DNA of 64,000 nucleotides. It comes from Escherichia coli. GTDB lineage: Bacteria; Pseudomonadota; Gammaproteobacteria; Enterobacterales; Enterobacteriaceae. The DNA lies in NCBI RefSeq assembly GCF_050920415.1, contig NZ_CP169309.1; one strand, written 5' to 3'. The notes under the pieces were generated by a model. That model had not been told where the DNA came from, made no database searches, and worked only from the letters and a program-made list of their open reading frames with translations. The position numbers were made by a program, and so were the translations under genes. Shown one piece after another: positions 49,134-64,000 of the stretch; position 1 is the stretch's first letter; the number at the start of each line of letters is the position of its first letter.

Positions 49134-50128
49134 GCTTTATCGGCGCTGCTTTCCTGCTGCGCCTGTAACTGTTCGGTCTGGCGTTTGTATCGACGCGCCA
49201 GCACCGCACAGACCATCAATTGGATCTGATGGAAAATCATCAGAGGCAGCACCATCATACCGATCACCGATGTGGGGAACAGAATGTTTGCCATCGGGAT
49301 GCCATTTGCCAGACTCTTTTTCGAACCACAAAAGACGATAGTAATTTCATCTGCCTTATTGAAGCCTAGTCGGCGTGCCATAAAGACGTTAACTACAATC
49401 ACGATAGCCAGAAGAACGCAACTGACCACCACGATAAACAGCAATGATCCCCAGCCAACTTTGTGCCAGATACCGTTAACGACGGCTTCGCTGAATGCCG
49501 TATAAACCACCAACAGAATGGACGTCTGGTCAGTTTTCGCAATCCATTTTTTATTACGCGACACCCAGTCACCAATCCACGGCCGCGAAAGATGCCCCAA
49601 CACAAATGGCAGCAGCAGTTGCAGCATTATCTTACCTACCTGCTCAAGGCTGCCCCCTGCACCGTGAACATTCATCACCAGGCCAACCAGCAACGGTGAA
49701 AGGAAAATCCCCAGTAGGCTGGATGCTGACGCAGAACAAACCGCCGCCGCGACGTTACCGCCCGCCATTGACGTGAAGGCGATTGCAGACTGCACGGTCG
49801 CGGGGAGAATGCACAAGTAGAGAAAACCGGAGTAGAGCATCGGGTCGACATTTACCGGTTTCCACCACGCAAACAGCACGCCCAGAATCGGAAACAGCAC
49901 GAAGGTGCTGCACATTACCCATAAATGCAGTCGCCAATGACCACCGCCTGCAATAATGGCCTCTCGCGATAACTTCGCGCCGTGCATAAAGAACAGCAGA
50001 GCAATGGCTGCGGTAGTCAGATTTTCAAAGAAGGGAACGAAATCGCCCCTGGCCGGAAAGAAAGAGGCCAGCAACACCACCGTGATCAGGGTTAAGGTGA
50101 AAGGATCGAGGATACGAAAAAGTTTCAT
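49130..50128 (-). CDS. yfeH: Putative Na+-dependent transporter of the bile acid:sodium symporter family, YfeH
   Basis: 332 aa polytopic membrane protein. Confidence 0.85.
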   Translation of the reverse strand: MKLFRILDPFTLTLITVVLLASFFPARGDFVPFFENLTTAAIALLFFMHGAKLSREAIIAGGGHWRLHLWVMCSTFVLFPILGVLFAWWKPVNVDPMLYSGFLYLCILPATVQSAIAFTSMAGGNVAAAVCSASASSLLGIFLSPLLVGLVMNVHGAGGSLEQVGKIMLQLLLPFVLGHLSRPWIGDWVSRNKKWIAKTDQTSILLVVYTAFSEAVVNGIWHKVGWGSLLFIVVVSCVLLAIVIVVNVFMARRLGFNKADEITIVFCGSKKSLANGIPMANILFPTSVIGMMVLPLMIFHQIQLMVCAVLARRYKRQTEQLQAQQESSADKA

Positions 50129-50217
50129 AAAGACTCCAGATGATCGATGGTTCTATTGTGCTTCTTCCAGTTTGAGAAATAAAATTGATTTATTGCATCC
50201 ATTCATGAAGAAAACAG

Positions 50218-51144
50218 ATGAATTATTCTTTAAAGCAATTAAAGGTTTTCGTCACAGTAGCGCAGGAGAAAAGTTTTAGTCGTGCAGGAGAGCGTATCGG
50301 CCTGAGCCAGTCGGCAGTGAGTCACAGTGTGAAGGAGCTGGAAAATCATACTGGTGTTCGCCTGCTGGACAGAACCACGCGTGAAGTGGTGCTTACAGAT
50401 GCAGGGCAGCAGTTGGCTTTGCGTCTTGAGCGACTGCTGGATGAACTTAACAGCACGTTGCGCGATACCGGGCGTATGGGGCAACAACTGAGCGGAAAAG
50501 TTCGGGTCGCTGCCAGCCAGACCATTTCCGCGCATCTTATTCCGCAATGCATTGCTGAAAGCCATCGCCGCTATCCAGATATTCAGTTTATCCTCCACGA
50601 TCGTCCGCAGCAGTGGGTGATGGAAAGTATTCGCCAGGGAGATGTCGATTTTGGCATCGTCATCGATCCAGGCCCAGTGGGCGATCTGCAATGTGAAGCG
50701 ATTCTTTCCGAGCCTTTCTTTCTGCTTTGCCATCGCGATAGCGCTTTGGCCGTGGAAGATTATGTACCCTGGCAGGCATTACAGGGAGCGAAATTGGTGT
50801 TGCAGGATTACGCGTCAGGCAGCCGACCGCTGATTGACGCAGCGCTGGCGCGCAATGGTATTCAGGCGAATATTGTGCAGGAGATTGGTCATCCGGCGAC
50901 GCTGTTCCCGATGGTAGCCGCAGGCATCGGCATCAGTATTCTTCCCGCACTGGCGCTACCATTGCCTGAAGGTAGCCCGCTGGTGGTAAAGCGCATTACG
51001 CCGGTGGTTGAACGCCAGTTGATGCTGGTGCGCAGGAAGAACCGTTCACTTTCCACCGCCGCTGAAGCGTTATGGGACGTAGTACGAGACCAGGGCAATG
51101 CGCTAATGGCTGGGCGGGAAGGGGATCCGTTGTATCAGATATAG
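50218..51144 (+). CDS. yfeR: LysR-family transcriptional regulator YfeR
   Basis: 308 aa; N-terminal LysR HTH ([23 protein letters not shown]). Confidence 0.88.
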
Positions 51145-55482: not shown

Positions 55483-55500
55483 ATGAGAGGCACGGGAACT

Positions 55501-55540
55501 GCCGGACATAGTTGGTCTGATAAGCGAAGCGCATCAGGCA
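55501..55540. repeat. REP element downstream of xapR
   Basis: gccggacatagttggtctgataagcgaagcgcatcaggc. Confidence 0.6.
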
Positions 55541-55552
55541 ATTTCGCAAATT

Positions 55553-55607
55553 GCAGATAGTAAAAAAGCGCCTTTAGGGCGCTTTTTTACATTGGTGGGT
55601 CGTGCAG
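55553..55607 (-). repeat. Direct repeat copy 1: tRNA-Lys 3'-end fragment plus terminator hairpin
   Basis: gcagatagtaaaaaagcgcctttagggcgcttttttacattggtgggtcgtgcag; on the minus strand this reads CTGCACGACCCACCA (tRNA 3' end) followed by an A-run/gcgcc/ggcgc/T-run terminator. Confidence 0.7.
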
Positions 55608-55674
55608 GATGACTCGCTTCGCTCGCCCTTCGGGCCGTCGCCGCGAGCGGCTCCGTTGTTTCGCTGCGCTCAAC

Positions 55675-55698
55675 TCGAACCTGCTGCAGGTTCGAATC
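55675..55698. other. Palindrome built from head-to-head tRNA T-arm fragments
   Basis: tcgaacctgc-tgcaggttcgaatc; GGTTCGAATC is the conserved tRNA T-arm, present in both orientations. Confidence 0.55.
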
Positions 55699-55708
55699 TT
55701 TGAGTATC

Positions 55709-55763
55709 GCAGATAGCAAAAAAGCGCCTTTAGGGCGCTTTTTTACATTGGTGGGTCGTGCAG
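55709..55763 (-). repeat. Direct repeat copy 2: tRNA-Lys 3'-end fragment plus terminator hairpin
   Basis: 55-bp copy with one mismatch to copy 1, 156 bp downstream of it. Confidence 0.7.
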
Positions 55764-55927
55764 AATCCTTATTCAGACTCTAACCTTTTGAAAAATCAAG
55801 AGATATAACACTAACAACCATCACTGTGGGCCTAATTATAGGCCCATTTTTGAAAGCTGCAAGTAAGAATTGATTTTGGTGATTTAAGTGCACAATTTTC
55901 AGGCAGCGCGGGAGTTGCAGCGGCATA

Positions 55928-56227
55928 TCAGGAGATCATTAACCCGGATTCACCTTCCACGATCACACCACCATGTTCGGTGGTATCTCCCATACGGGCA
56001 ACGGCTTTACCGTTAATTTTGAGAACCGTTGAACCGGAAACAATAGTGTCTTTGCTACCGCTACCTTTGCAGGTGAGCTTATCACCCACCAACGCCAGCG
56101 GAACACCATTATACGTAACAAAGGTCTGCTGACATTCACTGACCGGGCCACCAATATGTGGGCGGGGGCCGGGATCAACTTTCGGGCAGGTATGGTTATG
56201 TCCTTTGAGTACCACGGCTTTACTCAT
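55928..56227 (-). CDS. PAAR-domain protein (putative T6SS spike-sharpening protein)
   Basis: ORF 55928..56317 trimmed to ATG 56227, which overlaps the upstream stop as ATGA; 99 aa, MSKAVVLKGHNHTCP...LKINGKAVARMGDTTEHGGVIVEGESGLMIS with a PAAR-like KAVAR motif. Confidence 0.7.
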   Translation of the reverse strand: MSKAVVLKGHNHTCPKVDPGPRPHIGGPVSECQQTFVTYNGVPLALVGDKLTCKGSGSKDTIVSGSTVLKINGKAVARMGDTTEHGGVIVEGESGLMIS

Positions 56228-56982
56228 CGTCTGTTCTCCTGCGCAGTTTTTGTGAATATGTCCAGAAGTCGCCAGTAAGCATACTCCTGTTGTCCCAGAT
56301 TCAGGCAACCATACCACCGTGGATGCAGAGGATCATCAAAACAACGAAATCCGTCATAATATTGGGCTACTGCCAGTAGCACTTCGGCCTGTCCGCCGGA
56401 TTCATAGCGGGATAGCGCCCGCCTTGCACTAGCCATCAGTTGTCGGTATATATTTTCATATAGCTCAACTGTTGGCGAAAAAGCCGTTCTTTTTTCCACC
56501 GTATACAGGCGGGTGAAAATCTGACCACTCCCCAGCCAGGCATTGTGATATTGGGGGATAATGCAGTGAGGCGTATCCGGCCCCCAGGAATGTTTATAGT
56601 GTTCACTAAGCCAGTCAACAGACCAGTCATCTTTATGTGCTATCAGGTATGCAGGTATAGTCTCATCTTGCGGGGATGTCTTTGCACTAATGTAGTGTTC
56701 AACAATTTTCTGCAATTCCGTATAGCGGACATCCTCCATAAAAAACGATCCCAGGCACAATCTGGCACTGGCAATATGTATAGCAAGCAATTGATCAGGA
56801 ACTTTTTGAGTCTCAGTCCATTGATAGCTCTGTCTGATTAATTCATCAATAGCGGATGCGGGAAGCTTTCTGTCGGTAATAACCTTACCAAAGCGGTTTA
56901 CCAGCCAGACGCGGCCCTTTTTCAGAAATTCCATCATCCGGTGCTCCGCCAGACTACGGTAAGTTGCTTCTGTTATCCTCAT
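56224..56982 (-). CDS. Hypothetical protein, paralog of the 309-aa upstream gene; candidate T6SS immunity protein
   Basis: 252 aa; shares FMEDVRYTELQKIVEHYISA and LLAIHIASA motifs with FVKEALYTQNEVLLKEWLTA and IVLAIEMLAS of the neighbour. Confidence 0.45.
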   Translation of the reverse strand: MRITEATYRSLAEHRMMEFLKKGRVWLVNRFGKVITDRKLPASAIDELIRQSYQWTETQKVPDQLLAIHIASARLCLGSFFMEDVRYTELQKIVEHYISAKTSPQDETIPAYLIAHKDDWSVDWLSEHYKHSWGPDTPHCIIPQYHNAWLGSGQIFTRLYTVEKRTAFSPTVELYENIYRQLMASARRALSRYESGGQAEVLLAVAQYYDGFRCFDDPLHPRWYGCLNLGQQEYAYWRLLDIFTKTAQENRR

Positions 56983-57014
56983 GACTTCAGCCTCTCCCTT
57001 ACGCTATTGCAACA

Positions 57015-57944
57015 TTATTTAAAAAGCGTTTTTGTAAAAGCCAATTCCGGGTTAATGGCGATCAGTTTATCCAGCAATGGATAAAACCACTCCGGGGCAT
57101 TCCAGCGGCTGAAATCGGGGCGATGATCAATTGCCAGCGGTGTTTTTAACAGCGGATGATCGATTTCTGGGGTGGAAAGACCATGCTCTGCCCGAAAATT
57201 TTTTACTGCCTGATATTCAAACGGCCAGAGCAGCAATTCTCGGTCTTCAATTTCATAACCATTTCTGGCATATTCGTCTTCAGTTGTTTCGGTACGTGCC
57301 GACCATTTAAGATGGTTATCGCAAAGTGCTGTCAGCCACTCCTTCAGCAAGACTTCATTCTGTGTGTAGAGCGCTTCTTTTACAAACTGGGTATAAAAAC
57401 GATCAGAGGGGATACCAAATGTCTCCCAGTTGATAGTTTGTTTCTGTTCGCTGGCAAGCATTTCAATTGCCAGCACAATCATTTTTTGCGGTTTAAGCTT
57501 TTTAGCTTTTGCTACGTCAAAGTTTTTCAAACCTTGGGTGAAATAAGGATAATAAAGACGGGCGATATCAAGACGATGCGTTGCCATAAATGATAGGAGT
57601 GGAATTCCTTTCTTATAGAAAAAACCATCTAAGAAACCTGTGGTTTTAGAATATTGAATGGCTTCACAAAACAAATTCATGGATTTACATGCAACATAAT
57701 CACATATTAACGAGTTATCCTCTTTGTTTTTGTAAAATAAATACCACGCATATAGATAACAAAAGGATGAAGCTGCATCATAGAATATATATTGTGAATC
57801 AGATATTTCCTCGCCATTCGAATTGCCCACTTCTAATAAAGCATCAGAAATATCCTCATTGGAAATGTTTATATATCTGTTAACATCCATGTTAAAGGAA
57901 CTTTCATTAACAAAATAAGAATGAATTTCATTGTATCTTTTCAA
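57015..57944 (-). CDS. Hypothetical protein, paralog of the 252-aa downstream gene; candidate T6SS immunity protein
   Basis: 309 aa; AT-rich N-terminal third; C-terminal region homologous to the 252-aa ORF. Confidence 0.45.
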   Translation of the reverse strand: MKRYNEIHSYFVNESSFNMDVNRYINISNEDISDALLEVGNSNGEEISDSQYIFYDAASSFCYLYAWYLFYKNKEDNSLICDYVACKSMNLFCEAIQYSKTTGFLDGFFYKKGIPLLSFMATHRLDIARLYYPYFTQGLKNFDVAKAKKLKPQKMIVLAIEMLASEQKQTINWETFGIPSDRFYTQFVKEALYTQNEVLLKEWLTALCDNHLKWSARTETTEDEYARNGYEIEDRELLLWPFEYQAVKNFRAEHGLSTPEIDHPLLKTPLAIDHRPDFSRWNAPEWFYPLLDKLIAINPELAFTKTLFK

Positions 57945-57946
57945 TT

Positions 57947-58972
57947 TTAATTTCCTTCTTTTTGAGGAAGACTACTGTGAAAAGGAATATCCGTTTTAAA
58001 TTTATCTTTGACTATTTTTGCATCACCAAACCACAAGGAAATAGATGACATTCCCTCTGGGCAAGCTATGTTTTCAATTAATTTATATTCTTCGTTTATA
58101 CCTTGACCAATAACAAGTCCTATAACGCCCATTTCACCATTAGGTTTATTTTGATCTCGAAGTGCTTTTAGCAATTTTTTTACATTTCTTCGTTTTTCAT
58201 CATCCATCACATAACCACCTGGATTTTCTTTATTCATTTTTAACGCATTTTCAATTCTCTCTATAGCATAGTCAATGGCTCCCTCCTGTTTCTCTGATAA
58301 AATACCTTCATACTGCGTAAAATCACCTGCATCGTCACCATGACATGCCTTTGTTTTTACTTCACAGATCAGCCAAAAATCATCCGGCGGCGGTGAAGGG
58401 TTTTTTACTTTAGCAACAAGATCAAGGCCGTTTTTGGTTTTGACGTGCTGAACCGACATCACCGAACCTTCTACTACGCTGAAGTTAACGGTAGCCGTTG
58501 CCTGTTTAGCCTCCTTATTATAGATATGAAATTGTGCATTTCCCTGTTTCATCTTCCTGGCGAGAAGCACCTCGCCAACATCACCAGTAAACTGATTGAT
58601 TTTCAAAGAAAATAAGCTATCAAAAATCTTATTTTTAATCAAAAAATTAGCAACCTCAGTTGCGCTCATGCCAATTTCTGTATCGCCATTAACCTTTACG
58701 CGAAATGTTGCGTGTGTTGTACTGCCAGGCTCAAGCTCTGACTCAATACGTACAATTGCTTCCGTTGCATCTTTATTACCGGAACCTGACGCATGTGTTA
58801 TCCCTACAGTAATCCTGGTCGGGCCGGCTTGTTCTTCAAAAGTGGCAAAGGCCGTATTGGCTCTGAGGACTTCAGCCTCGGCTTCTTTTACTCTTTTCGC
58901 ATCATTAATCGCACGCCGGTTTACCTGCGTAACATTTACTGCATCTTCGATAGCCCCTGTACCTTTTCCCAT
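57947..58972 (-). CDS. Hypothetical protein with a possible PD-(D/E)xK nuclease motif; candidate T6SS toxin domain or immunity protein
   Basis: 341 aa; start overlaps the upstream stop as TAATG; literal PDDFWLICEVK matches the P-D...(D/E)-x-K pattern. Confidence 0.4.
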   Translation of the reverse strand: MGKGTGAIEDAVNVTQVNRRAINDAKRVKEAEAEVLRANTAFATFEEQAGPTRITVGITHASGSGNKDATEAIVRIESELEPGSTTHATFRVKVNGDTEIGMSATEVANFLIKNKIFDSLFSLKINQFTGDVGEVLLARKMKQGNAQFHIYNKEAKQATATVNFSVVEGSVMSVQHVKTKNGLDLVAKVKNPSPPPDDFWLICEVKTKACHGDDAGDFTQYEGILSEKQEGAIDYAIERIENALKMNKENPGGYVMDDEKRRNVKKLLKALRDQNKPNGEMGVIGLVIGQGINEEYKLIENIACPEGMSSISLWFGDAKIVKDKFKTDIPFHSSLPQKEGN

Positions 58973-60306
58973 TATTTTTCCACTCCCTGGTCTTCATTCT
59001 CAATCTTCATTGAGGAAACCTCTACTTCATTTACCAGTGCAACCTTACTGCCAAGGTAAGCGCCGCCACCACTGGTAACTAATGCTGAAGCAAATTTATA
59101 TTGTGGTTTTTTACCAAATACCATCAGGGTATTTATTGCATGAAAGGCCACTTCAATATTATGTCCCCCACCTGATTTTTTATCCAGATAGCGGGAAAAC
59201 TCAAGCAGTGGATTATATCCATCGGCTTTTGAACCAAGCCACCGATTACGCAGTTTATCCGCTACCTCAATACCATGATTGACATCCACAACAAGCATAG
59301 CAATACGAAGAACCTTCATTGAACCTTTTAAAAAAATAGTCCCGGAAACAATAGCAGCAATCGTCAGAAGTGCATCAGCGACCTCTAAAATAACATCCCT
59401 TACAACATCAAGAGACCGGTTCTCATCAGCCTGATTAAGAACGGCACGGATAAATTCTTCCGCCAGATCAGAGGGGGATTTATGTAATGGGCCGGCCAGT
59501 CTTTCAGGACGACTTCCTGCACTATTTGTCGCCAGCTCACCATATATCAGCGATACATCAAGTGTTTCATATGGACGGTATTTCAGTTGCTCATCGGTTA
59601 ACACATCCCGGTATTCAGCAGGAAGACCTATCGGAACTTCTGCATCTCTGTAGATATAAATATCCGGCGCAACCTCAACAACAAAATCATCTCCCCAGAA
59701 TGTACTGCCATGAGTTCTGGCATGTTCCACTTTATAATTATTACTGTAATAAGGGATAATATTTGCACCAACCTCATGGTATCTTAATTTAAATTTAGCA
59801 TCTTCCAGTTGAACGGTTTCTCCTTTATATTTAACAGCAAACCCGTTGCCGTCTGGGCTTTCCCTGGCCTGTTCGTCAAAAAGCAGTGCAAAATTGAGAA
59901 ATGCTTCATCCCCAAGTTGTTTTCTGACGGCATCAAAAAACGCATCCATTGCCACAATTTCTTTTGCTGTTTCAATAGCATTTCTTTCCGCATCCGTTAA
60001 ATCTGGCGAGTCCTGTATTGTTGCATAACGGGTGATTTCATTATTCAGACTACGGAGTGGAATACCTCGCTGTAAATGTACCTGTGAGGTCTTCTTATCC
60101 ACTGGCTCAAAGAAAGATCCCATGAAACTGGCTGTATTCTTATAAAAGTCTTCTATCGCCTGCTGTCCCTCAGCCGTTGAGCTGTCAAACTCCACAAAAG
60201 CGCCAAATGGTTTCAGCGGGCATGTTGCTGTTGCGCTTTTTGCATCACACGGTATTGCGTCAGAAGGAATGCTTCCCGTTGCCGCTCCGTCAGTATCATC
60301 CATCAC
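58972..60306 (-). CDS. Hypothetical protein; candidate T6SS cargo effector partnered with the DUF4123 adaptor
   Basis: 444 aa; sits directly downstream of the DUF4123 gene, the canonical effector position; hydrophobic segment ALLTIAAIVSGTIFL; no GxSxG lipase motif. Confidence 0.45.
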   Translation of the reverse strand: MMDDTDGAATGSIPSDAIPCDAKSATATCPLKPFGAFVEFDSSTAEGQQAIEDFYKNTASFMGSFFEPVDKKTSQVHLQRGIPLRSLNNEITRYATIQDSPDLTDAERNAIETAKEIVAMDAFFDAVRKQLGDEAFLNFALLFDEQARESPDGNGFAVKYKGETVQLEDAKFKLRYHEVGANIIPYYSNNYKVEHARTHGSTFWGDDFVVEVAPDIYIYRDAEVPIGLPAEYRDVLTDEQLKYRPYETLDVSLIYGELATNSAGSRPERLAGPLHKSPSDLAEEFIRAVLNQADENRSLDVVRDVILEVADALLTIAAIVSGTIFLKGSMKVLRIAMLVVDVNHGIEVADKLRNRWLGSKADGYNPLLEFSRYLDKKSGGGHNIEVAFHAINTLMVFGKKPQYKFASALVTSGGGAYLGSKVALVNEVEVSSMKIENEDQGVEK

Positions 60307-60322
60307 TTACACTCCTTTTTTG

Positions 60323-60898
60323 CTATATAAAGACCAGACTATTTTTTTCTTTTGGGTTTTCACAAATAATATTTGTCAGTCCGGTGGTAAATTCTGCAAA
60401 ATCGTCCGCAGGTAAAAAAGGAATAAAATCCCGCACTGTTTCAGGCGCATAATACCGGAACATGACCCACATTTTATTTACCTCATCATAAAGCTGATTA
60501 AATTTTCGCAGATGATGAGTCAGTTCATTCAGGGAAAGATAGCTGCGGATAAAAATACCCCAGCCATTACCCCGGCTGCTTCTTATCAGCCATTCCGTAA
60601 ATGGCTTATCTTTTTCCAGCCGGACGATATAAGGCGCATAAAGAGAAAACTGTTCTCCCAGTTCACCTTTCCATAAGCATGACCATTCCGTCTCATACGC
60701 ATCAAGTAAAACGGCAATATCCGGTTTTTTTAATGCATCAATGATGGCATAAGTGTGGCAGTCAGTTATTTTACTGGCAGATATCACTGATATATCATCA
60801 GATGCTGTTTTTTCCGGCATACTGAAAAGAAAGCCTGTCAGCGCATCCTGGTATAATTGTGTATCTTCCGGCACATCAATAATTTTCAGTCGGCTCAT
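60323..60898 (-). CDS. DUF4123-family T6SS effector adaptor/chaperone (Tap/Tec-like)
   Basis: 191 aa; YAIIDA, YAPYIV, HLRKF and RYYAPETVRDF motifs match my recollection of the DUF4123 signature; ATGA overlap with the vgrG stop. Confidence 0.75.
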   Translation of the reverse strand: MSRLKIIDVPEDTQLYQDALTGFLFSMPEKTASDDISVISASKITDCHTYAIIDALKKPDIAVLLDAYETEWSCLWKGELGEQFSLYAPYIVRLEKDKPFTEWLIRSSRGNGWGIFIRSYLSLNELTHHLRKFNQLYDEVNKMWVMFRYYAPETVRDFIPFLPADDFAEFTTGLTNIICENPKEKNSLVFI

Positions 60899-62967
60899 TT
60901 TTTCCCGTCCTCTTCTTCGGCCTGTTTTGCTTTCGCACAGATTTCGCAGAACGGTTTGCCCTCATTCACCATCGCCGTCAGTGCTTCCACCTGATCCACG
61001 CCGCCGCCCCGGATATCCATTGCTGGCGTCAGGATCTGAAGTTTTTTTGCCTTTATCGTAACGCCACCACCATCAATGGTCAGACTGCCGCCAGGCCCGG
61101 CGATCACCAGTCGCTCTCCGGCGTGCATAATGTATTTATTGGTCTGCGAAAAAATCTTCGTATTTACCGTTTCATCCTTCACGCCCTGGATCACCACCGT
61201 TTTATTGCCGCCAATATCGTCCAGGGAATCAGCAAATATTTTCTTTCTTTCCGAACTGTTCACCACCAGCGTCCGGTTTCTGTCCACTTCGATTTCCTGA
61301 TCCTGAACCACCCGGACAACGGAGTTCCTGCCGATGGTTTCATAGTGATCCCGGCCCACATCTGTTTTCTTGTCCTGACCAATGGTTTCCTGCTGGTCAA
61401 CGCCCACGCTTTTGGCGCGGTTATTACCGATGGTATGGCTTTCATCGTGCAGAATTTCCGTCACATGGTCTTTCTGCGCGTGCATATAGACCTGTTCCCG
61501 GTTTGTGGCGTCTTCAAAACGCAGTTCATTAAAACCCTCGCCCCGGTAGGTCTGCGTGCGGATAGTGGTCTGCGTTTTCGTTTCCGGTAAATCCCCCGGC
61601 GAGCGATTTTTCTCATGGTAGGTGCGCCCCATGATGATCGGCTGGTCAGGATCACCGTTTAAAAAATCGACAATCACCTCCTGACCCACACGCGGAATGG
61701 CAAGATGACCAAATCCCGTCCCGGCCCATGGCTGTGATACTCTGATCCAGCAGGAACTGTTCTCATCCTGTTTGTGATAACGATCCCACAAAAATTTCAC
61801 CCGCACCCGGCCATGCTCGTCGCAGAAGATTTCCTCACCTTCCGGCCCGGTGACGACCGCTGGTTGTGGGCCATCCACTTTCGGCTTAGGCTGCGGCGTG
61901 GGACGCCAGGTTTTATCCGCTGGTATGGCCTGAAACGTATTCACCAGCGTGGTTCCCTGGCCCCGGCTTCCGGGAACGGCCTGCGGCTGCTCGCCGTGCA
62001 GTTCGCTGGCGATCACCTGCCATTCCCGGTTCAGATCGTCAGCCGGATGATCGGTCAGCGTAAAGCGCGTACCGGGCCACAGTTTTGGCGAGTTGCTGCA
62101 TCCCCTGGCGATCTCCGCATCATTGCGCCAGCCTTCCATCTGGTAACGGGTAAAATCTCTGCCATGCTGTTCGTCCTTAAAACGCCCCGGATAGTCCATC
62201 ACCTCATACTGGTTGCGCTGGCCGTTAAGACTGGCGGCATTATGGCGAAAACGCCCCGGCCAGTCAGGGTATTTGAAGGTGTAGTCTTTGCTGATGACAT
62301 ACGCCGGGCGTATCTGCGCACTGTGGCGGAACTGGCTGATATACTCCGTTTCCGTGGCGCGGGGTTCCGGGTTAAACGGAAGGGGGAAGGCTTCCGGCAG
62401 GTAGTAAACTTTATCGCAGAACACCAGCGGCTGATCCTTCCCTTCACGGGCGTGCTCTTCGTAAAAAAATATCCCTTCTTCCGCCAGCAGGCGGCAGAGA
62501 AAACCAAAATCAGTTTCACCGTACTGCACGCAGAACTCCCGCGCCGGATGAGGCTCGCCCAGCAGATAAGCCGTCTGCATCACCCGGTTGTCATCCAGCA
62601 GGTGCTTAATAATGGACTGAATATCCTGCTGCTGAAAATGGCGAAAATTTTCCCGCAGGCTGCTGCGCCAGAAAGGAGGATGCACCCGCAGGTAGTAGTT
62701 CATTTTATGACCGTCATATTCCCCGCGCTCAATCCTGGCTACCAGCCCGGTGATATGGCGCTGTGCGGTATTGTTTTGCCACAGGGTAAGCGTGGCATTC
62801 AGTTCCAGCAGTTCCGTAGATTTAAGGTGGATAGTGTCGCTGATGAGATGAAGATCGAGGGTGAATAATGCGGAGTAATGCTGGGTAAGATGAAAGTTTA
62901 CGACGGCAAAGGTTTCTGTATCAAAATCGCCGATATCAACGGTAAAACGGGTTCCTGTCCGGGGCAT
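60895..62967 (-). CDS. vgrG: Type VI secretion system spike protein VgrG
   Basis: 690 aa; gp27/gp5-like body, e.g. CDEHGRVRVKFLWDRYHKQDENSSCWIRVSQPWAG and repetitive beta-helix region; short C-terminal tail EGKPFCEICAKAKQAEEEDGKK. Confidence 0.9.
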   Translation of the reverse strand: MPRTGTRFTVDIGDFDTETFAVVNFHLTQHYSALFTLDLHLISDTIHLKSTELLELNATLTLWQNNTAQRHITGLVARIERGEYDGHKMNYYLRVHPPFWRSSLRENFRHFQQQDIQSIIKHLLDDNRVMQTAYLLGEPHPAREFCVQYGETDFGFLCRLLAEEGIFFYEEHAREGKDQPLVFCDKVYYLPEAFPLPFNPEPRATETEYISQFRHSAQIRPAYVISKDYTFKYPDWPGRFRHNAASLNGQRNQYEVMDYPGRFKDEQHGRDFTRYQMEGWRNDAEIARGCSNSPKLWPGTRFTLTDHPADDLNREWQVIASELHGEQPQAVPGSRGQGTTLVNTFQAIPADKTWRPTPQPKPKVDGPQPAVVTGPEGEEIFCDEHGRVRVKFLWDRYHKQDENSSCWIRVSQPWAGTGFGHLAIPRVGQEVIVDFLNGDPDQPIIMGRTYHEKNRSPGDLPETKTQTTIRTQTYRGEGFNELRFEDATNREQVYMHAQKDHVTEILHDESHTIGNNRAKSVGVDQQETIGQDKKTDVGRDHYETIGRNSVVRVVQDQEIEVDRNRTLVVNSSERKKIFADSLDDIGGNKTVVIQGVKDETVNTKIFSQTNKYIMHAGERLVIAGPGGSLTIDGGGVTIKAKKLQILTPAMDIRGGGVDQVEALTAMVNEGKPFCEICAKAKQAEEEDGKK

Positions 62968-63406
62968 AACGTTTCCTTAGCAATAATACGGCTCAGAGAT
63001 AACGAAATCATTCATGAGCAATATGAATTATGATTAATAATTCGTAAAAGGAATGTATTTTATAATGACTCTTCCTGTTTTTAGTCAAAGTTGTCATTAT
63101 AATTAATATTATACTAATTAATTTCCAGAAAACTTCTGTAACCAGTAAAAACACTGCTCCGACAACCTAACATAATGTAAATTAACACTATTAACTGGAA
63201 ATTATCATCTTTAAGTTTACATAAATTCCGTGATGCATATCGCAAAGCGGTGATAAATATATATCCTGTGAAAATGAACTTTGCACCTCCACAGAATATG
63301 TTAACGTAATATCATATGGTAGCAGAAGGCTATTAATTAATTATCCGTATTATAAATCTTGTCTGACGCCTTTCTGTTTCTGCTGTATTACGGGAAGGAT
63401 TACCTA
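62968..63406. promoter_or_regulatory. AT-rich divergent control region between vgrG and tssF
   Basis: 439 bp, visibly AT-rich (runs such as ttataattaatattatactaattaattt); no ORF; flanked by divergent starts. Confidence 0.5.
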
Positions 63407-64000
63407 TGGCAATGAACGAACGTTTTTACCGGGAAGAACTGGATTATCTTCGTCAGTATGGCGCGCTGCTGGCGCAGGAATATCCCGCCCTGAAATCTTT
63501 CCTGGGCAGTAAAAACGCTGATCCGAACGTGGAACGCCTGCTGGAAGGGTTCGCGTTTCTCTCCGGCAGACTGCGGGAAAAAATCGAGGATGAGTTTCCC
63601 GAAATCACCGTTCCGCTGATTAACCGTCAGTGGCCCAATTATTTGCGCCCCGTTCCGCCGATGACCGTTATCGAATACACGCCGGACAGCTGCAGGCTTA
63701 CCGCTCCCCTGACCGTTTCACGCGGTGAGCAGGTGATGAATCCGGGGCAGGACAGCCAGCCGGAAAACAGCCGCCCCGGTGATGAATCAGGGGCTACCGG
63801 GGGGCCACCTTCCTGTATCTTCACTTTGTGCCGTGATATCCGCCTCCTGCCGTTGTGCATTGAAACAATACAGAGTCGCAGCAGCCCGCAATCCAGTACC
63901 CTTGATCTCATTTTCACCGTGACGGGAAAAGGCCGGATCGCCACCGCCGATCTGAATCAGATCAGTTTCTGGCTGGGCGATGCGGACGAACGCAGCCGCA
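63407..64000 (+). CDS. tssF: Type VI secretion baseplate protein TssF (ImpG/VasA family), N-terminal 198 aa; continues beyond the window
   Basis: Open frame from ATG 63407 to the window end with no stop (absent from the ORF track for that reason); MAMNERFYREELDYLRQYGALLAQEYPALKSFLGSKNADPNVERLLEGFAFLSGRL... matches the TssF N-terminal signature. Confidence 0.75.

What the first reader, a model, noticed from the sequence alone, without database searches (positions are those of the whole stretch)
58972..60306. 444-aa protein in the effector slot lacks recognisable catalytic motifs
It sits where the cargo effector is expected, immediately after the DUF4123 adaptor, yet has no GxSxG lipase motif, no obvious Cys-His amidase pair, no HNH/AHH signature and no Rhs/PAAR/MIX marker. 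It has a hydrophobic segment (ALLTIAAIVSGTIFL followed by VLRIAMLVVDV) that could insert into membranes. It may be a new effector family, or the delivery/loading half of a two-gene effector whose toxic half is the overlapping 341-aa ORF.
Basis: inference. Interest (0 to 1): 0.7.

Follow-up and report, generated by a model that had tools for sequence, protein, structure and literature searches.

The report
Orphan partner protein of a T6SS nuclease
The 444-aa protein is a real, rare and unannotated protein that most likely is not a toxin itself but the hydrophobic loading or translocation partner of the nuclease-like toxin encoded right after it, in a seven-gene weapon cassette that bacteria swap between strains.

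Summary
The ORF is real: minus strand 58972-60306, 444 aa from GTG and 443 aa from ATG. It starts 16 nt after a DUF4123 gene and overlaps the 341-aa ORF by 1 nt. It has no Pfam, NCBIfam, PHROG or PDB match.

An exhaustive profile search of 1.84 billion representatives found 14 clusters. Every context read holds the same genes: VgrG, DUF4123, A (this protein), B, C, D and PAAR.

- **A:** no acidic, His or Lys residue is invariant. Its hallmark is a conserved C-terminal domain with a marginally hydrophobic, Gly/Ala-rich helical hairpin. dN/dS is 0.23.
- **B (341 aa):** it carries an invariant E..GxD..PPPP..(D/E)xK..Q signature. This is PD-(D/E)xK-type and resembles the PoNe DNase motif.
- **C:** it behaves as the immunity protein. 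Its N-terminal half is hypervariable, and a Pectobacterium array keeps C copies while A and B copies decay.
- **D:** it travels with DUF4123 and PAAR, so it is a candidate split adaptor.
- No membrane or periplasmic immunity gene is present.

The best reading is that A is a co-effector of a two-gene effector. It is a new variant of a known kind, and both structure models failed.

The parts
60895..62967 (-). VgrG spike protein (690 aa). Its C-terminal tail ...GGGVDQVEALTAMVNEGKPFCEICAKAK is conserved across most related cassettes.
   Evidence: TIGR03361 E=3.9e-180; annotated as Vgr family; C-termini compared.
60323..60898 (-). Short DUF4123 adaptor (191 aa). Its length corresponds to the conserved VgrG-binding N-lobe only.
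   Evidence: Annotated as DUF4123. PF13503 is recorded on all orthologues. The Tla1 model matches residues 51-156 to profile positions 19-129 of 245. The N-lobe is about 177 residues in Colautti 2024 (PMC11582642).
58972..60306 (-). Protein A, the finding (444 aa). It belongs to an orphan family and is the proposed co-effector, or loading and translocation partner, of B.
   Evidence: No Pfam, NCBIfam, PHROG or PDB hit. 14 clusters in 1.84 billion representatives. Conserved synteny. dN/dS 0.23.
58975..59475 (-). C-terminal domain of A (residues about 278-444). It is the best-conserved part of the family, with motifs D300xxRD, G322, G358, GY364NPLL, FHAxN392xxMxFG398K and a Gly-rich tail.
   Evidence: Distant homologues match mainly profile positions about 266-430. 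Invariant columns. dN/dS 0-0.09 over residues 347-444.
59281..59391 (-). Marginally hydrophobic helical hairpin of A (residues about 306-342: ILEVADALLTIAAIVSGTIFLKGSMKVLRIAMLVVDV).
   Evidence: Kyte-Doolittle 19-residue maximum is 1.6-2.3 in all 17 family members. The crude Hessa sum is +0.6 to +3.7 kcal/mol, against +5.5 to +10.6 for B, C and D.
57947..58972 (-). Protein B (341 aa). It is the predicted PD-(D/E)xK, PoNe-like nuclease toxin and is translationally coupled to A.
   Evidence: Invariant E134, G182, D184, K206 and Q229, with D/E at 204, across 12 sequences down to 21% identity. The only PDB profile hit is the PoNe DNase 9waq_B over GxD..PPPP..ExK. hhalign P=4.4e-4 and 1.3e-3.
58286..58573 (-). 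Predicted catalytic core of B (residues 134-229: E134, D184, E204-x-K206, Q229).
   Evidence: The secondary-structure order helix(E)-strand-strand(D)-strand(ExK)-helix(Q) appears in the low-confidence model. This core is deleted in the decayed B' copy of Pectobacterium.
57015..57944 (-). Protein C (309 aa). It is the predicted cytoplasmic immunity protein, with a hypervariable N-terminal half and a highly conserved C-terminal half.
   Evidence: It lies directly downstream of B in every locus read through that position. Pectobacterium has three tandem copies while the A and B copies decay. pN is 0.35-0.45 over residues 1-100 between E. coli alleles. No TM segment.
56224..56982 (-). Protein D (252-aa ORF; RefSeq start gives 237 aa, 56224-56937). 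It is a candidate co-chaperone or split C-lobe of the DUF4123 adaptor.
   Evidence: It sits next to DUF4123 in L008 and L012. In L012 it is in the VgrG-DUF4123-D-PAAR operon, apart from A-B-C. Its C-terminal half is co-inherited with PAAR and VgrG, and its N-terminal half with the cargo. The split-adaptor precedent TecT/co-TecT is described in PMC11582642.
55928..56227 (-). PAAR spike-tip protein (99 aa). Its gene overlaps the D gene by 4 nt.
   Evidence: NF033420 E=1.1e-7; annotated as a PAAR domain protein.

Best explanation
The 444-aa protein (A) is the non-catalytic half of a two-polypeptide T6SS cargo effector.

Proposed mechanism (inferred):
1. A and the 341-aa protein B are made in fixed ratio by coupled translation and form a complex.
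2. A is recruited to the VgrG tail by its cognate short DUF4123 adaptor, probably helped by protein D, which would link to the VgrG-PAAR tip.
3. The complex is fired with the spike into a neighbouring cell.
4. There, A's conserved C-terminal domain uses its marginally hydrophobic, small-residue-rich helical hairpin to engage the inner membrane. This helps B, a Mg-dependent PD-(D/E)xK (PoNe-like) DNase, reach the cytoplasm.
5. Kin cells are protected by the cytoplasmic protein C, which binds B.

Shown directly:
- the anatomy and conservation of the seven-gene cassette;
- the absence of conserved catalytic residues in A;
- the invariant nuclease signature in B;
- the conserved hydrophobic hairpin in A;
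- the behaviour of C as a retained, diversifying gene.

Inferred only: A-B complex formation, secretion of A, A's membrane role, D's adaptor role and B's DNase activity.
For: 1. **Obligate pairing.** In all 10 distinct contexts read, A is immediately followed by a B homologue. The start/stop overlap is 1 or 4 nt in the window, L002, L004, L008 and L018. No A-B fusion and no A without B was found (10, 13, 25).
2. **A lacks a catalytic set.** Across 17 sequences the only invariant residues are C29, S60, G81, G132, F143, V212, A282, G322, G358, Y364, N392 and G398. The Asp/Glu/His/Lys residues conserved among close relatives (E168, D169, K171, H195, H199) are lost in distant members.
3. **B has a catalytic set.** E134, D184, (D/E)204-x-K206 and Q229 are invariant at 21-55% identity, in the canonical order. 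The motif set G-E / G-[ILV]-D / PPPP / [WY]x3-[DE]-x-K / KQ parallels the published PoNe motif Kx3GExnGIDx2YxnYx3ExK.
4. **C behaves as immunity and A+B as the offensive unit.** The Pectobacterium array is A-B-C, then B'(core deleted)-C', then remnant A plus remnant B followed by C''. Between E. coli alleles the most variable stretches are C 1-100, B 251-300 and A 201-300.
5. **Hydrophobicity.** Only A has a hydrophobic segment. B, C and D have none and have no signal peptide. No small ORF that could encode a membrane immunity protein fits in the cassette.
6. **Operon structure.** In L012, A-B-C form their own operon separate from VgrG-DUF4123-D-PAAR. This is the three-gene layout of secreted adaptor or co-effector, toxin and immunity described for RIX tethers (PMC10435454), and the same three roles occur in the MIX co-effector VP1388 module (PMC8728615).
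7. **Analogy to one-chain effectors.** Single-chain FIX-PoNe effectors carry equally marginal hydrophobic Gly/Ser-rich segments in their N-terminal delivery region. FIX is reported to be fused only to cytoplasm-targeting toxins (PMC12135965). Tde1, a DUF4123-dependent DNase, needs an N-terminal glycine zipper for translocation (PMC10240207).
8. **Co-inheritance.** DUF4123 and A travel together. Both are swapped in L006, and DUF4123 plus A residues 1-100 are identical in L018.
Against: - No experiment and no usable structure exists. The AF2 models had pLDDT 38.5 (A) and 46.1 (B), and the fold searches were meaningless.
- A-B interaction, secretion of A and any membrane activity are untested.
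- The hydrophobic hairpin is only marginal (crude dG +0.6 to +3.7 kcal/mol; +3.06 in the window protein itself). It could simply be the buried core of a soluble helical domain.
- A shows no detectable homology to FIX (hhalign P=0.098), MIX or any other delivery domain.
- B's link to PoNe is at motif level only (hhalign probability 18-33%), and C is not detectably PoNi/DUF1911.
- The invariant Cys29 of A is unexplained.
- The E. coli island carries only tssF and tssG of the core apparatus nearby, so function in this strain is uncertain.
Confidence: 0.5

Rival explanations
1. A is itself a toxin that perturbs the target cell's inner membrane by pore formation or depolarisation through its hydrophobic C-terminal hairpin. 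On this reading the cassette delivers two toxins, A and B.
For: Every family member has a conserved hydrophobic hairpin. Small-residue and Gly-rich helices and a Gly-rich C-terminal tail are present. A sits in the classical effector slot after DUF4123. DUF4123-dependent membrane toxins are a known class, for example the MIX effectors listed in PMC11582642. A remnants decay together with B in the Pectobacterium array, as expected for an offensive gene.
Against: Membrane-acting T6SS effectors are normally matched by membrane-anchored or periplasmic immunity proteins, such as Vai1 (PMC13373197). Here C and D lack any TM segment or signal peptide, and there is no room for a small ORF. Only C is multiplied in the orphan array, not D. 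D groups with the delivery genes rather than with A in L012. The segment's hydrophobicity is marginal.
Confidence: 0.2
2. A is a non-secreted cytoplasmic chaperone or extra adaptor that stabilises B and hands it to DUF4123 and VgrG, staying behind in the attacker.
For: A has no catalytic motif. It is tightly coupled with B. Multi-component adaptor sets exist, such as TecT/co-TecT (PMC11582642) and Tvp complexes (PMC13373197).
Against: The cassette already has two adaptor candidates, DUF4123 and D. A hydrophobic hairpin conserved in all members is unusual for a soluble chaperone. A diverges as fast as B and lies inside the exchanged polymorphic tract. A copies decay with B in the orphan array, which is effector-like behaviour.
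Confidence: 0.12
3. A is an enzyme toxin of an unrecognised fold, for example one that uses the invariant Cys29 with His389 and Asn392. B would then be a second toxin or an accessory nuclease-fold protein.
For: Cys29 is invariant in an otherwise variable N-terminus. Asn392 is invariant, and His389 is present in 15 of 17 sequences. About 170 residues in the middle of A have mixed alpha/beta character and strong conservation among close relatives (LEDAKFK, THGS, GDDFVxEV).
Against: His389 is Asp in P0014 and P0015, including the allele in the same E. coli island type. His389 and Asn392 are three residues apart on one predicted helix, unlike Cys-His-Asn/Asp hydrolases. The mid-domain acidic and His residues are not conserved in distant members. 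There is no hit to any enzyme family in Pfam, NCBIfam or PDB.
Confidence: 0.08

Closest known systems
Binary effector module VP1388 (MIX co-effector) / VP1390 (toxin) / VP1389 (immunity) of Vibrio parahaemolyticus T6SS1 (Dar et al. 2021, PMC8728615)
   Same: It is a three-gene unit in which a non-toxic partner protein is needed for, and secreted with, a separately encoded toxin, with a single immunity protein. A-B-C has the same logic and forms its own operon in L012.
   Different: A has no MIX motif or Pfam MIX hit. The toxin here is predicted to act in the cytoplasm as a nuclease, not in the periplasm. A DUF4123 adaptor, a fourth protein D and a PAAR are part of the conserved cassette. Co-secretion is untested.
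RIX-domain secreted adaptors (tethers) with Rte1/Rti1 (Kanarek et al. 2023, PMC10435454)
   Same: The first gene of a three-gene operon encodes a toxin-less secreted protein that tethers the downstream cargo effector to the spike, and the third gene is the immunity gene.
   Different: RIX is a short arginine-rich N-terminal domain of Vibrionaceae. A has no Arg in its first 79 residues (sequence), is 444 aa long and carries a conserved hydrophobic C-terminal domain. No homology was found.
FIX-PoNe effector V12_14465 with PoNi immunity (Jana et al. 2019, PMC6688995; structure 9waq, PMC13377157)
   Same: It is a T6SS cargo DNase of the PD-(D/E)xK superfamily, often encoded after VgrG or DUF4123. 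B shares the motif set GE / G[ILV]D / PPPP / [YW]x3ExK / KQ. The FIX-containing N-terminal region has hydrophobic Gly/Ser-rich segments of the same strength as A's hairpin. A+B therefore looks like a two-chain analogue of this one-chain effector.
   Different: Delivery region and toxin are one polypeptide in FIX-PoNe and two here. A versus FIX-PoNe gives hhalign P=0.098. B versus PoNe aligns only over 54-58 columns (P about 1e-3). C is not DUF1911/PoNi.
TseT / TsiT / TecT (DUF4123) / co-TecT / PAAR4 of Pseudomonas aeruginosa (Burkinshaw et al. 2018, as summarised in PMC11582642)
   Same: A DUF4123-dependent DNase effector is delivered with a split adaptor and a dedicated PAAR: a conserved DUF4123 lobe plus a separately encoded effector-binding partner. 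Here a short DUF4123 (191 aa) plus D could play these roles.
   Different: TecT binds a PAAR extension, whereas this PAAR is a bare 99-aa domain and the cassette has its own VgrG. There is no equivalent of A in the description read. D shows no detectable similarity to any family. The original paper could not be read.
Tde1-Tap1 of Agrobacterium tumefaciens (Ali et al. 2023, PMC10240207) and prePAAR/TMD effectors with Eag chaperones (bioRxiv 10.1101/2020.10.28.356139)
   Same: A cytoplasm-acting T6SS toxin depends on a hydrophobic or glycine-zipper element for crossing the target inner membrane, and that element is shielded or handled by an adaptor in the attacker.
   Different: In those systems the hydrophobic element is in the same polypeptide as the toxin and is N-terminal. 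In A it is C-terminal and on a separate protein. The window protein has only weak GxxxG character in the hairpin.

Membership tests
DUF4123 (Tap/Tec)-dependent T6SS cargo effector | Encoded directly downstream of a vgrG gene and a DUF4123 gene | tested here: met
   VgrG 60895-62967, DUF4123 60323-60898 and A 58972-60306 are all on the minus strand. The same order is seen in 7 other loci read, with D inserted before A in L008 and a split layout in L012.
DUF4123 (Tap/Tec)-dependent T6SS cargo effector | Physical binding to the cognate DUF4123 protein and T6SS-dependent export | not testable with these tools
   Only indirect support is available: DUF4123 and A (or A's first 100 residues) are co-inherited across recombinant alleles.
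Binary effector module / co-effector (VP1388-type) | MIX domain in the co-effector | tested here: not met
   No Pfam hit and no hRxGhhY motif.
Binary effector module / co-effector (VP1388-type) | Non-toxic partner encoded with a toxin and one immunity gene in one operon | tested here: met
   A-B-C are adjacent in every locus and form a separate operon in L012. A lacks a conserved catalytic set and B has one. Non-toxicity of A is inferred, not measured.
Binary effector module / co-effector (VP1388-type) | Mutual dependence of the two proteins for secretion, and direct interaction | not testable with these tools
   This needs secretion assays or pull-downs.
FIX-domain T6SS effectors | Sequence similarity to the FIX region (residues about 40-125 of V12_14465) | tested here: not met
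   hhalign of the A family (A3) against 12 full-length FIX-PoNe effectors (A8) gave P=0.098 and probability 0.6%. Only an analogous hydrophobic character is shared.
RIX secreted adaptors | Arginine-rich N-terminal RIX domain | tested here: not met
   The first Arg of A is R80 and the N-terminus is acidic and polar (sequence). No RIX sequences were available for a profile comparison.
Membrane-disrupting or pore-forming T6SS effectors (VasX, Tme, Ssp6 type) | Hydrophobic or glycine-zipper helices able to insert into membranes | tested here: inconclusive
   The conserved segment has a KD of 1.6-2.3, but its crude Hessa sum is +0.6 to +3.7 kcal/mol, which is marginal.
Membrane-disrupting or pore-forming T6SS effectors (VasX, Tme, Ssp6 type) | Cognate immunity protein located in the inner membrane or periplasm | tested here: not met
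   C and D have no TM segment (KD max 1.4 or less; Hessa +5.5 or more) and polar N-termini. No small ORFs fit in the 0-32 nt gaps of the cassette.
Tle lipases / amidases / HNH-AHH nucleases / Rhs / PAAR-fused effectors (for A) | GxSxG; a conserved Cys-His pair; HNH or AHH; YD repeats; PAAR | tested here: not met
   Regex and Pfam are negative. Cys29 is invariant but no His is invariant.
PD-(D/E)xK nuclease superfamily (for B) | Conserved E ... D ... (D/E)xK (... Q) on a helix-strand-strand-strand-helix core | tested here: met
   E134, D184, D/E204, K206 and Q229 are invariant in 12 sequences. The secondary-structure order is consistent in the low-confidence model. The fold itself is unconfirmed.
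PoNe DNase family (for B) | Motif Kx3GExnGIDx2YxnYx3ExK and profile similarity to PoNe | tested here: inconclusive
   GE, G[ILV]D, PPPP and [WY]x3[DE]xK are present, but the Kx3 and x2Y elements are not. PDB profile hit to 9waq_B has E=1.2. hhalign gave P=4.4e-4 and 1.3e-3, probability 18-33%.
PoNe DNase family (for B) | Cognate immunity of the PoNi type (DUF1911/DUF1910) | tested here: not met
   No Pfam DUF1911 hit in 10 C sequences. hhalign of the C family against 12 PoNi sequences gave P=0.69.
Split DUF4123 adaptor (TecT / co-TecT type) (for DUF4123 + D) | A DUF4123 protein reduced to the conserved N-lobe, plus a separately encoded effector-binding partner | tested here: inconclusive
   The DUF4123 proteins are 189-194 aa, against an N-lobe of about 177 residues. 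D is adjacent to DUF4123 in L008 and L012. D has no detectable homology to anything, and co-TecT was not available for comparison.

The most novel reading that the evidence does not exclude
A is a dedicated, separately encoded membrane-translocation subunit. It is fired with the spike, inserts its hairpin into the prey inner membrane and carries the nuclease B into the cytoplasm. That would make A-B a genetically separable 'translocator plus toxin' pair for a T6SS cargo effector, with a four-protein loading set (DUF4123, A, D, PAAR) that is exchanged between strains as a block.
Probability: 0.3. Interest if true: 0.8.

Novelty: new variant of a known kind. Interest (0 to 1): 0.55.

Why it matters
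How T6SS cargo toxins that act in the cytoplasm cross the prey's inner membrane is still unresolved. Known clues, such as prePAAR transmembrane domains, the Tde1 glycine zipper and possibly FIX, all sit in the same polypeptide as the toxin. That makes loading, translocation and toxicity hard to separate.

In this cassette the hydrophobic element and the nuclease are on two proteins that are always co-encoded, so the steps could be dissected genetically.

The cassette also adds four unannotated protein families (A, B, C, D) to the T6SS repertoire of Enterobacterales:
- a divergent PoNe-like nuclease with a non-PoNi immunity protein;
- a candidate split partner of a minimal DUF4123 adaptor.

If A turns out to be an ordinary accessory protein, the finding remains a useful annotation of a rare auxiliary module.

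Tried and rejected
**Database searches**
- Pfam on A, B, C and D and on every member of their alignments gave nothing.
- NCBIfam on the window proteins and on distant members hit only VgrG, PAAR and a weak Tla1 match for DUF4123. PHROGs gave nothing.
- PDB sequence-profile searches with A1, A2 and A3 gave only chance-level hits. A4 gave only the PoNe chain at E=1.2.
- tblastn of A and of a PoNe fragment against plasmids found no match.
- A literature search for the RefSeq accessions found no paper. Burkinshaw 2018 is not held.

**Structure**
- AlphaFold2 with shallow alignments gave pLDDT 38.5 (A) and 46.1 (B).
- Foldseek against the PDB with both models gave no match at E<=0.001. The listed hits (levivirus coats, methyltransferases, McsB) are disregarded.

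**Specific hypotheses tested and not supported**
- A carries a FIX domain: hhalign P=0.098.
- C is PoNi-like: hhalign P=0.65 and 0.69, so a by-eye resemblance (W..C..H and W.FE..A[VL]) is not supported.
- A contains a PD-(D/E)xK site at D144/E168-D169-x-K171: rejected because these residues are not conserved in distant homologues.
- A has a Cys-His-Asn triad (C29/H389/N392): judged unlikely because H389 is Asp in two members and lies 3 residues from N392.

**Other**
- An orphan PoNe fragment locus (L015-L017) gave no full-length effector.


Full report

Yes. On the minus strand the window carries, in order:
- VgrG (62967-60895, 690 aa; TIGR03361 E=3.9e-180);
- a 191-aa DUF4123 protein (60898-60323);
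- the 444-aa ORF (60306-58972; 443 aa from the ATG used by RefSeq, WP_000342837.1);
- a 341-aa ORF (58972-57947);
- a 309-aa ORF (57944-57015);
- a 252-aa ORF (56982-56224; 237 aa in RefSeq);
- a 99-aa PAAR protein (56227-55928).

I call the four middle proteins A (the finding), B, C and D.

A's stop and B's start share one base (TAATG), with a GGAG inside A's 3' end. A GGAG precedes A's start.

A regex scan confirms that A has no GxSxG, AHH, HExxH, PAAR, YD or MIX motif. It places the quoted hydrophobic strings at residues 312-326 and 332-342.

The region has about 42% G+C, against about 51% in the flanking xap/yfe genes. It lies in an island bounded by xapR on one side. On the other side are tssF-tssG, two integrase genes and a tRNA cluster. 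Only 1 of 5,426 complete E. coli genomes carries it.

**2. A is a real gene from a very small, unannotated family.**

A has no match in any annotated library:
- Pfam;
- NCBIfam;
- PHROGs;
- PDB sequence profiles.

A word-indexed search of 5.8 billion proteins returned 7 relatives. An exhaustive HMM search of 1.84 billion cluster representatives returned 14, all 395-550 aa except one 300-aa entry (P0020), and none fused to another domain.

Against a second E. coli allele (86% identity) the whole-gene dN/dS is 0.23. It is 0-0.09 over residues 347-444. The gene is therefore under purifying selection.

**3. The surroundings are the main evidence.**

I read ten distinct contexts of A homologues:
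- Klebsiella spallanzanii;
- Pectobacterium parmentieri;
- two further E. coli-type islands (one from a public sequencing-run assembly without an organism name);
- one further unnamed NCBI genome assembly;
- five metagenome or public sequencing-run contigs.

Identity to A goes down to 21-27%.

Every contig long enough to show it has the same set of genes: VgrG, DUF4123, A, B, C, D, PAAR.

Two variants are informative.
- In L012, A-B-C form one operon and VgrG-DUF4123-D-PAAR form a convergent one.
- In L008 the order is DUF4123-D-A-B.

So D belongs with the delivery genes, and A-B-C is the cargo unit. None of A, B, C or D, nor any of their homologues, hits a Pfam family.

**4. Which gene is the toxin?**

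*Protein A.* Aligning 17 A sequences leaves only C29, S60, G81, G132, F143, V212, A282, G322, G358, Y364, N392 and G398 invariant. The acidic, His and Lys residues that look conserved among close relatives (E168, D169, K171, H195, H199, D206, E211) are lost in distant members.

*Protein B.* Aligning 12 B sequences (21-55% identity) leaves just eight invariant columns: E99, G130, E134, G182, D184, P195, K206 and Q229. Position 204 is always Asp or Glu. This is the E...GxD...(D/E)xK...Q signature of PD-(D/E)xK nucleases. In the low-confidence model these residues fall on helix 116-142, the start of strand 185-189, strand 200-206 and helix 225-249, which is the expected topology.

*Link to PoNe.* The only PDB profile hit of the B family is chain 9waq_B, 'VP14465' (E=1.2). 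The alignment runs exactly over GRGIDGIY..NPPPPY-VVTETK. That chain is the PoNe DNase of a Vibrio parahaemolyticus T6SS effector (PMC6688995, PMC13377157). Its published motif is Kx3GExnGIDx2YxnYx3ExK.

B shares GE, G[ILV]D, the PPPP loop, [WY]x3[DE]xK and a downstream KQ. Profile-profile comparison gives:
- P=4.4e-4 against PoNe fragments;
- P=1.3e-3 against 12 full-length FIX-PoNe effectors fetched from genomes.

Probability is only 18-33%, over 54-58 columns. I therefore call B a PD-(D/E)xK nuclease with a PoNe-like motif set, not a proven PoNe member.

**5. C behaves as the immunity protein, and A+B as one offensive unit.**

C follows B in every locus read through that position. In Pectobacterium the cassette reads:
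- A-B-C;
- then B' followed by C', where B' keeps residues 2-129 and 289-329 and the nuclease core is deleted;
- then a remnant of A (residues 397-424) and a remnant of B (residues 285-329), followed by an intact C'';
- then D and PAAR.

Copies of A and B have decayed while all three C copies are intact. This is the classical pattern of orphan immunity retention.

Between the two E. coli alleles a divergent tract (pS 0.3-0.7) runs from about residue 100 of A, through B, to about residue 250 of C. The flanks are nearly identical. Amino-acid divergence peaks in C 1-100 (pN 0.35-0.45), B 251-300 (0.29) and A 201-300 (0.23-0.26).

C is not detectably related to PoNi/DUF1911.

**6. What A looks like.**

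From the N-terminus, A has four parts:
- about 45 variable, acidic residues containing the invariant Cys29;
- a helical region (residues 45-145);
- a strand-rich region and a variable linker (about 155-275);
- the family's hallmark, a conserved C-terminal domain (278-444).

Distant homologues match mainly this last domain.

The C-terminal domain contains a hairpin of two hydrophobic, small-residue-rich helices around the invariant G322. Its hydropathy compares as follows.

| Protein or region | Kyte-Doolittle 19-residue maximum | Crude Hessa sum (kcal/mol) |
|---|---|---|
| A family (17 members) | 1.6-2.3 | +0.6 to +3.7 |
| B, C, D | 1.4 or less | +5.5 to +10.6 (window copies) |
| FIX region of FIX-PoNe effectors | 1.5-2.5 | +0.7 to +2.3 |

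The segment is marginal rather than a classical transmembrane helix. That fits proteins that switch from soluble to membrane-bound, but it also fits a buried core helix.

The N-terminal FIX-containing region of the single-chain FIX-PoNe effectors carries segments of the same strength. FIX is reported to be fused only to cytoplasm-targeting toxins (PMC12135965). There is no detectable homology between A and that region (hhalign P=0.098).

**7. The delivery genes.**

The DUF4123 proteins of these cassettes are only 189-194 aa. The Tla1 model matches just its first 129 of 245 positions.

Colautti et al. describe DUF4123 adaptors as two lobes:
- a conserved N-lobe of about 177 residues that binds the VgrG C-terminal helix-turn-helix;
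- a variable helical C-lobe that binds the effector.

In TecT/co-TecT the two lobes are encoded separately (PMC11582642). D, which sits beside DUF4123 in L008 and L012, is a candidate for that second piece.

Comparing the window with L006 (a contig with the same tssG-tssF/VgrG layout) gives the following identities.

| Gene or region | Identity, window vs L006 |
|---|---|
| VgrG | 98% |
| PAAR | 97% |
| D, C-terminal half | 95-100% |
| DUF4123 | 43% |
| A | 39% |
| B | 27% |
| C | 40% |
| D, N-terminal part | 22-42% |

The exchangeable block is therefore DUF4123, A, B, C and the N-terminal part of D, set between constant spike parts. Recombination junctions may simply follow sequence conservation, so this is suggestive only.

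**8. Mechanism proposed.**

Confidence in the overall model is 0.5. A and B are co-translated and form a complex. The cognate DUF4123, with D, loads A-B on the VgrG-PAAR tip. After firing, A's C-terminal hairpin engages the prey inner membrane and helps the DNase B reach the cytoplasm. C protects kin.

My confidence in the separate steps is:
- A belongs to the offensive unit with B: about 0.8;
- A is not the catalytic toxin: about 0.65;
- A acts specifically in membrane translocation: about 0.3.

Rivals:
- A is a second, membrane-active toxin (0.2). This is weakened by the absence of any membrane or periplasmic immunity candidate and by D's association with delivery genes.
- A is a non-secreted chaperone (0.12).
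- A is an enzyme of unknown fold using Cys29 (0.08).

**9. Comparison with known systems.**

Functionally the closest are three:
- the MIX co-effector module VP1388/VP1390 (PMC8728615);
- the RIX secreted adaptors (PMC10435454);
- the one-chain FIX-PoNe effectors (PMC6688995).

A fails the sequence tests for MIX, RIX and FIX. The cassette differs from all three in combining a minimal DUF4123, a fourth conserved protein D and a PAAR. It is best described as a new variant of the binary-effector theme with four orphan families.

**10. Limits.**

- Both structure predictions were run on shallow alignments and failed. The fold searches on them are meaningless.
- Nothing here measures toxicity, secretion or binding.
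- The E. coli island has only tssF and tssG of the core apparatus next to it. No second copy of that tssF/tssG type was found in the one complete genome that carries it. Activity in this host is therefore uncertain.
- The invariant Cys29 of A remains unexplained.

Noticed in passing
L004:12351-16943 (Pectobacterium parmentieri): A tandem array follows the primary A-B-C. It holds a 161-aa B' that keeps B residues 2-129 and 289-329 but lacks the nuclease core, then C', then short remnants of A (residues 397-424) and B (residues 285-329), then C''. The three C copies share a near-identical C-terminal region and differ in their N-terminal halves.
   Followed up: yes
window 55928-62967 compared with L006 and L018: The cassette is mosaic between E. 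coli-type islands. Against L018 a divergent tract runs from about residue 100 of A to about residue 250 of C, with identical flanks. Against L006 the whole block from DUF4123 to the N-terminal part of D is replaced, while VgrG, the C-terminal half of D and PAAR stay 95-100% identical.
   Followed up: yes
window 63406-64000 and L014:603-8658: Divergently upstream of vgrG lie only tssF and tssG, followed by a 153-aa hypothetical protein, an HTH protein, two integrase-domain genes and a tRNA-Lys/Val cluster. This looks like a truncated or auxiliary T6SS island at a tRNA site. This tssF-tssG type is found in 1 of 5,426 complete E. coli genomes, and that genome has no second copy detectable by megablast.
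   Followed up: partly
window 60895-60985 (last ~30 codons of vgrG): The VgrG C-terminal tail ...GGGVDQVEALTAMVNEGKPFCEICAKAK, with a CxxC pair, is conserved in five of six cassettes compared, even where the rest of VgrG is 52-68% identical. A has an invariant Cys29, and D carries cysteines conserved in most homologues (ARLCFGSFF, DGFRCFDDP). Whether these cysteines form a shared metal site or disulphide is unknown.
   Followed up: no
L020-L036 (FIX-PoNe effectors from Vibrio, Aeromonas, Grimontia, Burkholderia): The FIX region of single-chain PoNe effectors contains two or three hydrophobic Gly/Ser-rich segments (KD 1.5-2.5), for example WIALVLTLIGCIPTLGSAVKGVVKIIFLF. The PoNi proteins downstream also show a variable N-terminal part and a conserved C-terminal part, like protein C here, although no homology to C is detectable.
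   Followed up: partly
window 55483-55927; L001:7794-7919: RefSeq annotates an RtT sRNA (a tyrT-associated repeat) in the 445-nt gap between xapR and the PAAR gene, at the island's left junction.
   Followed up: no
window 50128-50218 compared with L001:993-2404: The only complete genome with the cassette (E. coli MFDS1022581) has an IS2 between yfeH and yfeR that is absent from the window. The window therefore comes from a different isolate. In L018 and L019 the xapABR-yfeN genes are missing between the PAAR gene and yfeR.
   Followed up: no
P0004, P0015, P0020 (A homologues); L013:708-2312: Three A-family members carry an extra N-terminal extension of about 100 aa. It is rich in Gly, Ser, Thr, Asp and Asn and of low complexity, and its role is unknown.
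   Followed up: no
window 56224-56982 and 55928-56317: The mechanical ORFs are longer than the RefSeq calls: D is 252 aa against 237 aa, and PAAR is 129 aa (GTG) against 99 aa (ATG). With the RefSeq PAAR start, the D and PAAR genes overlap by 4 nt.
   Followed up: partly
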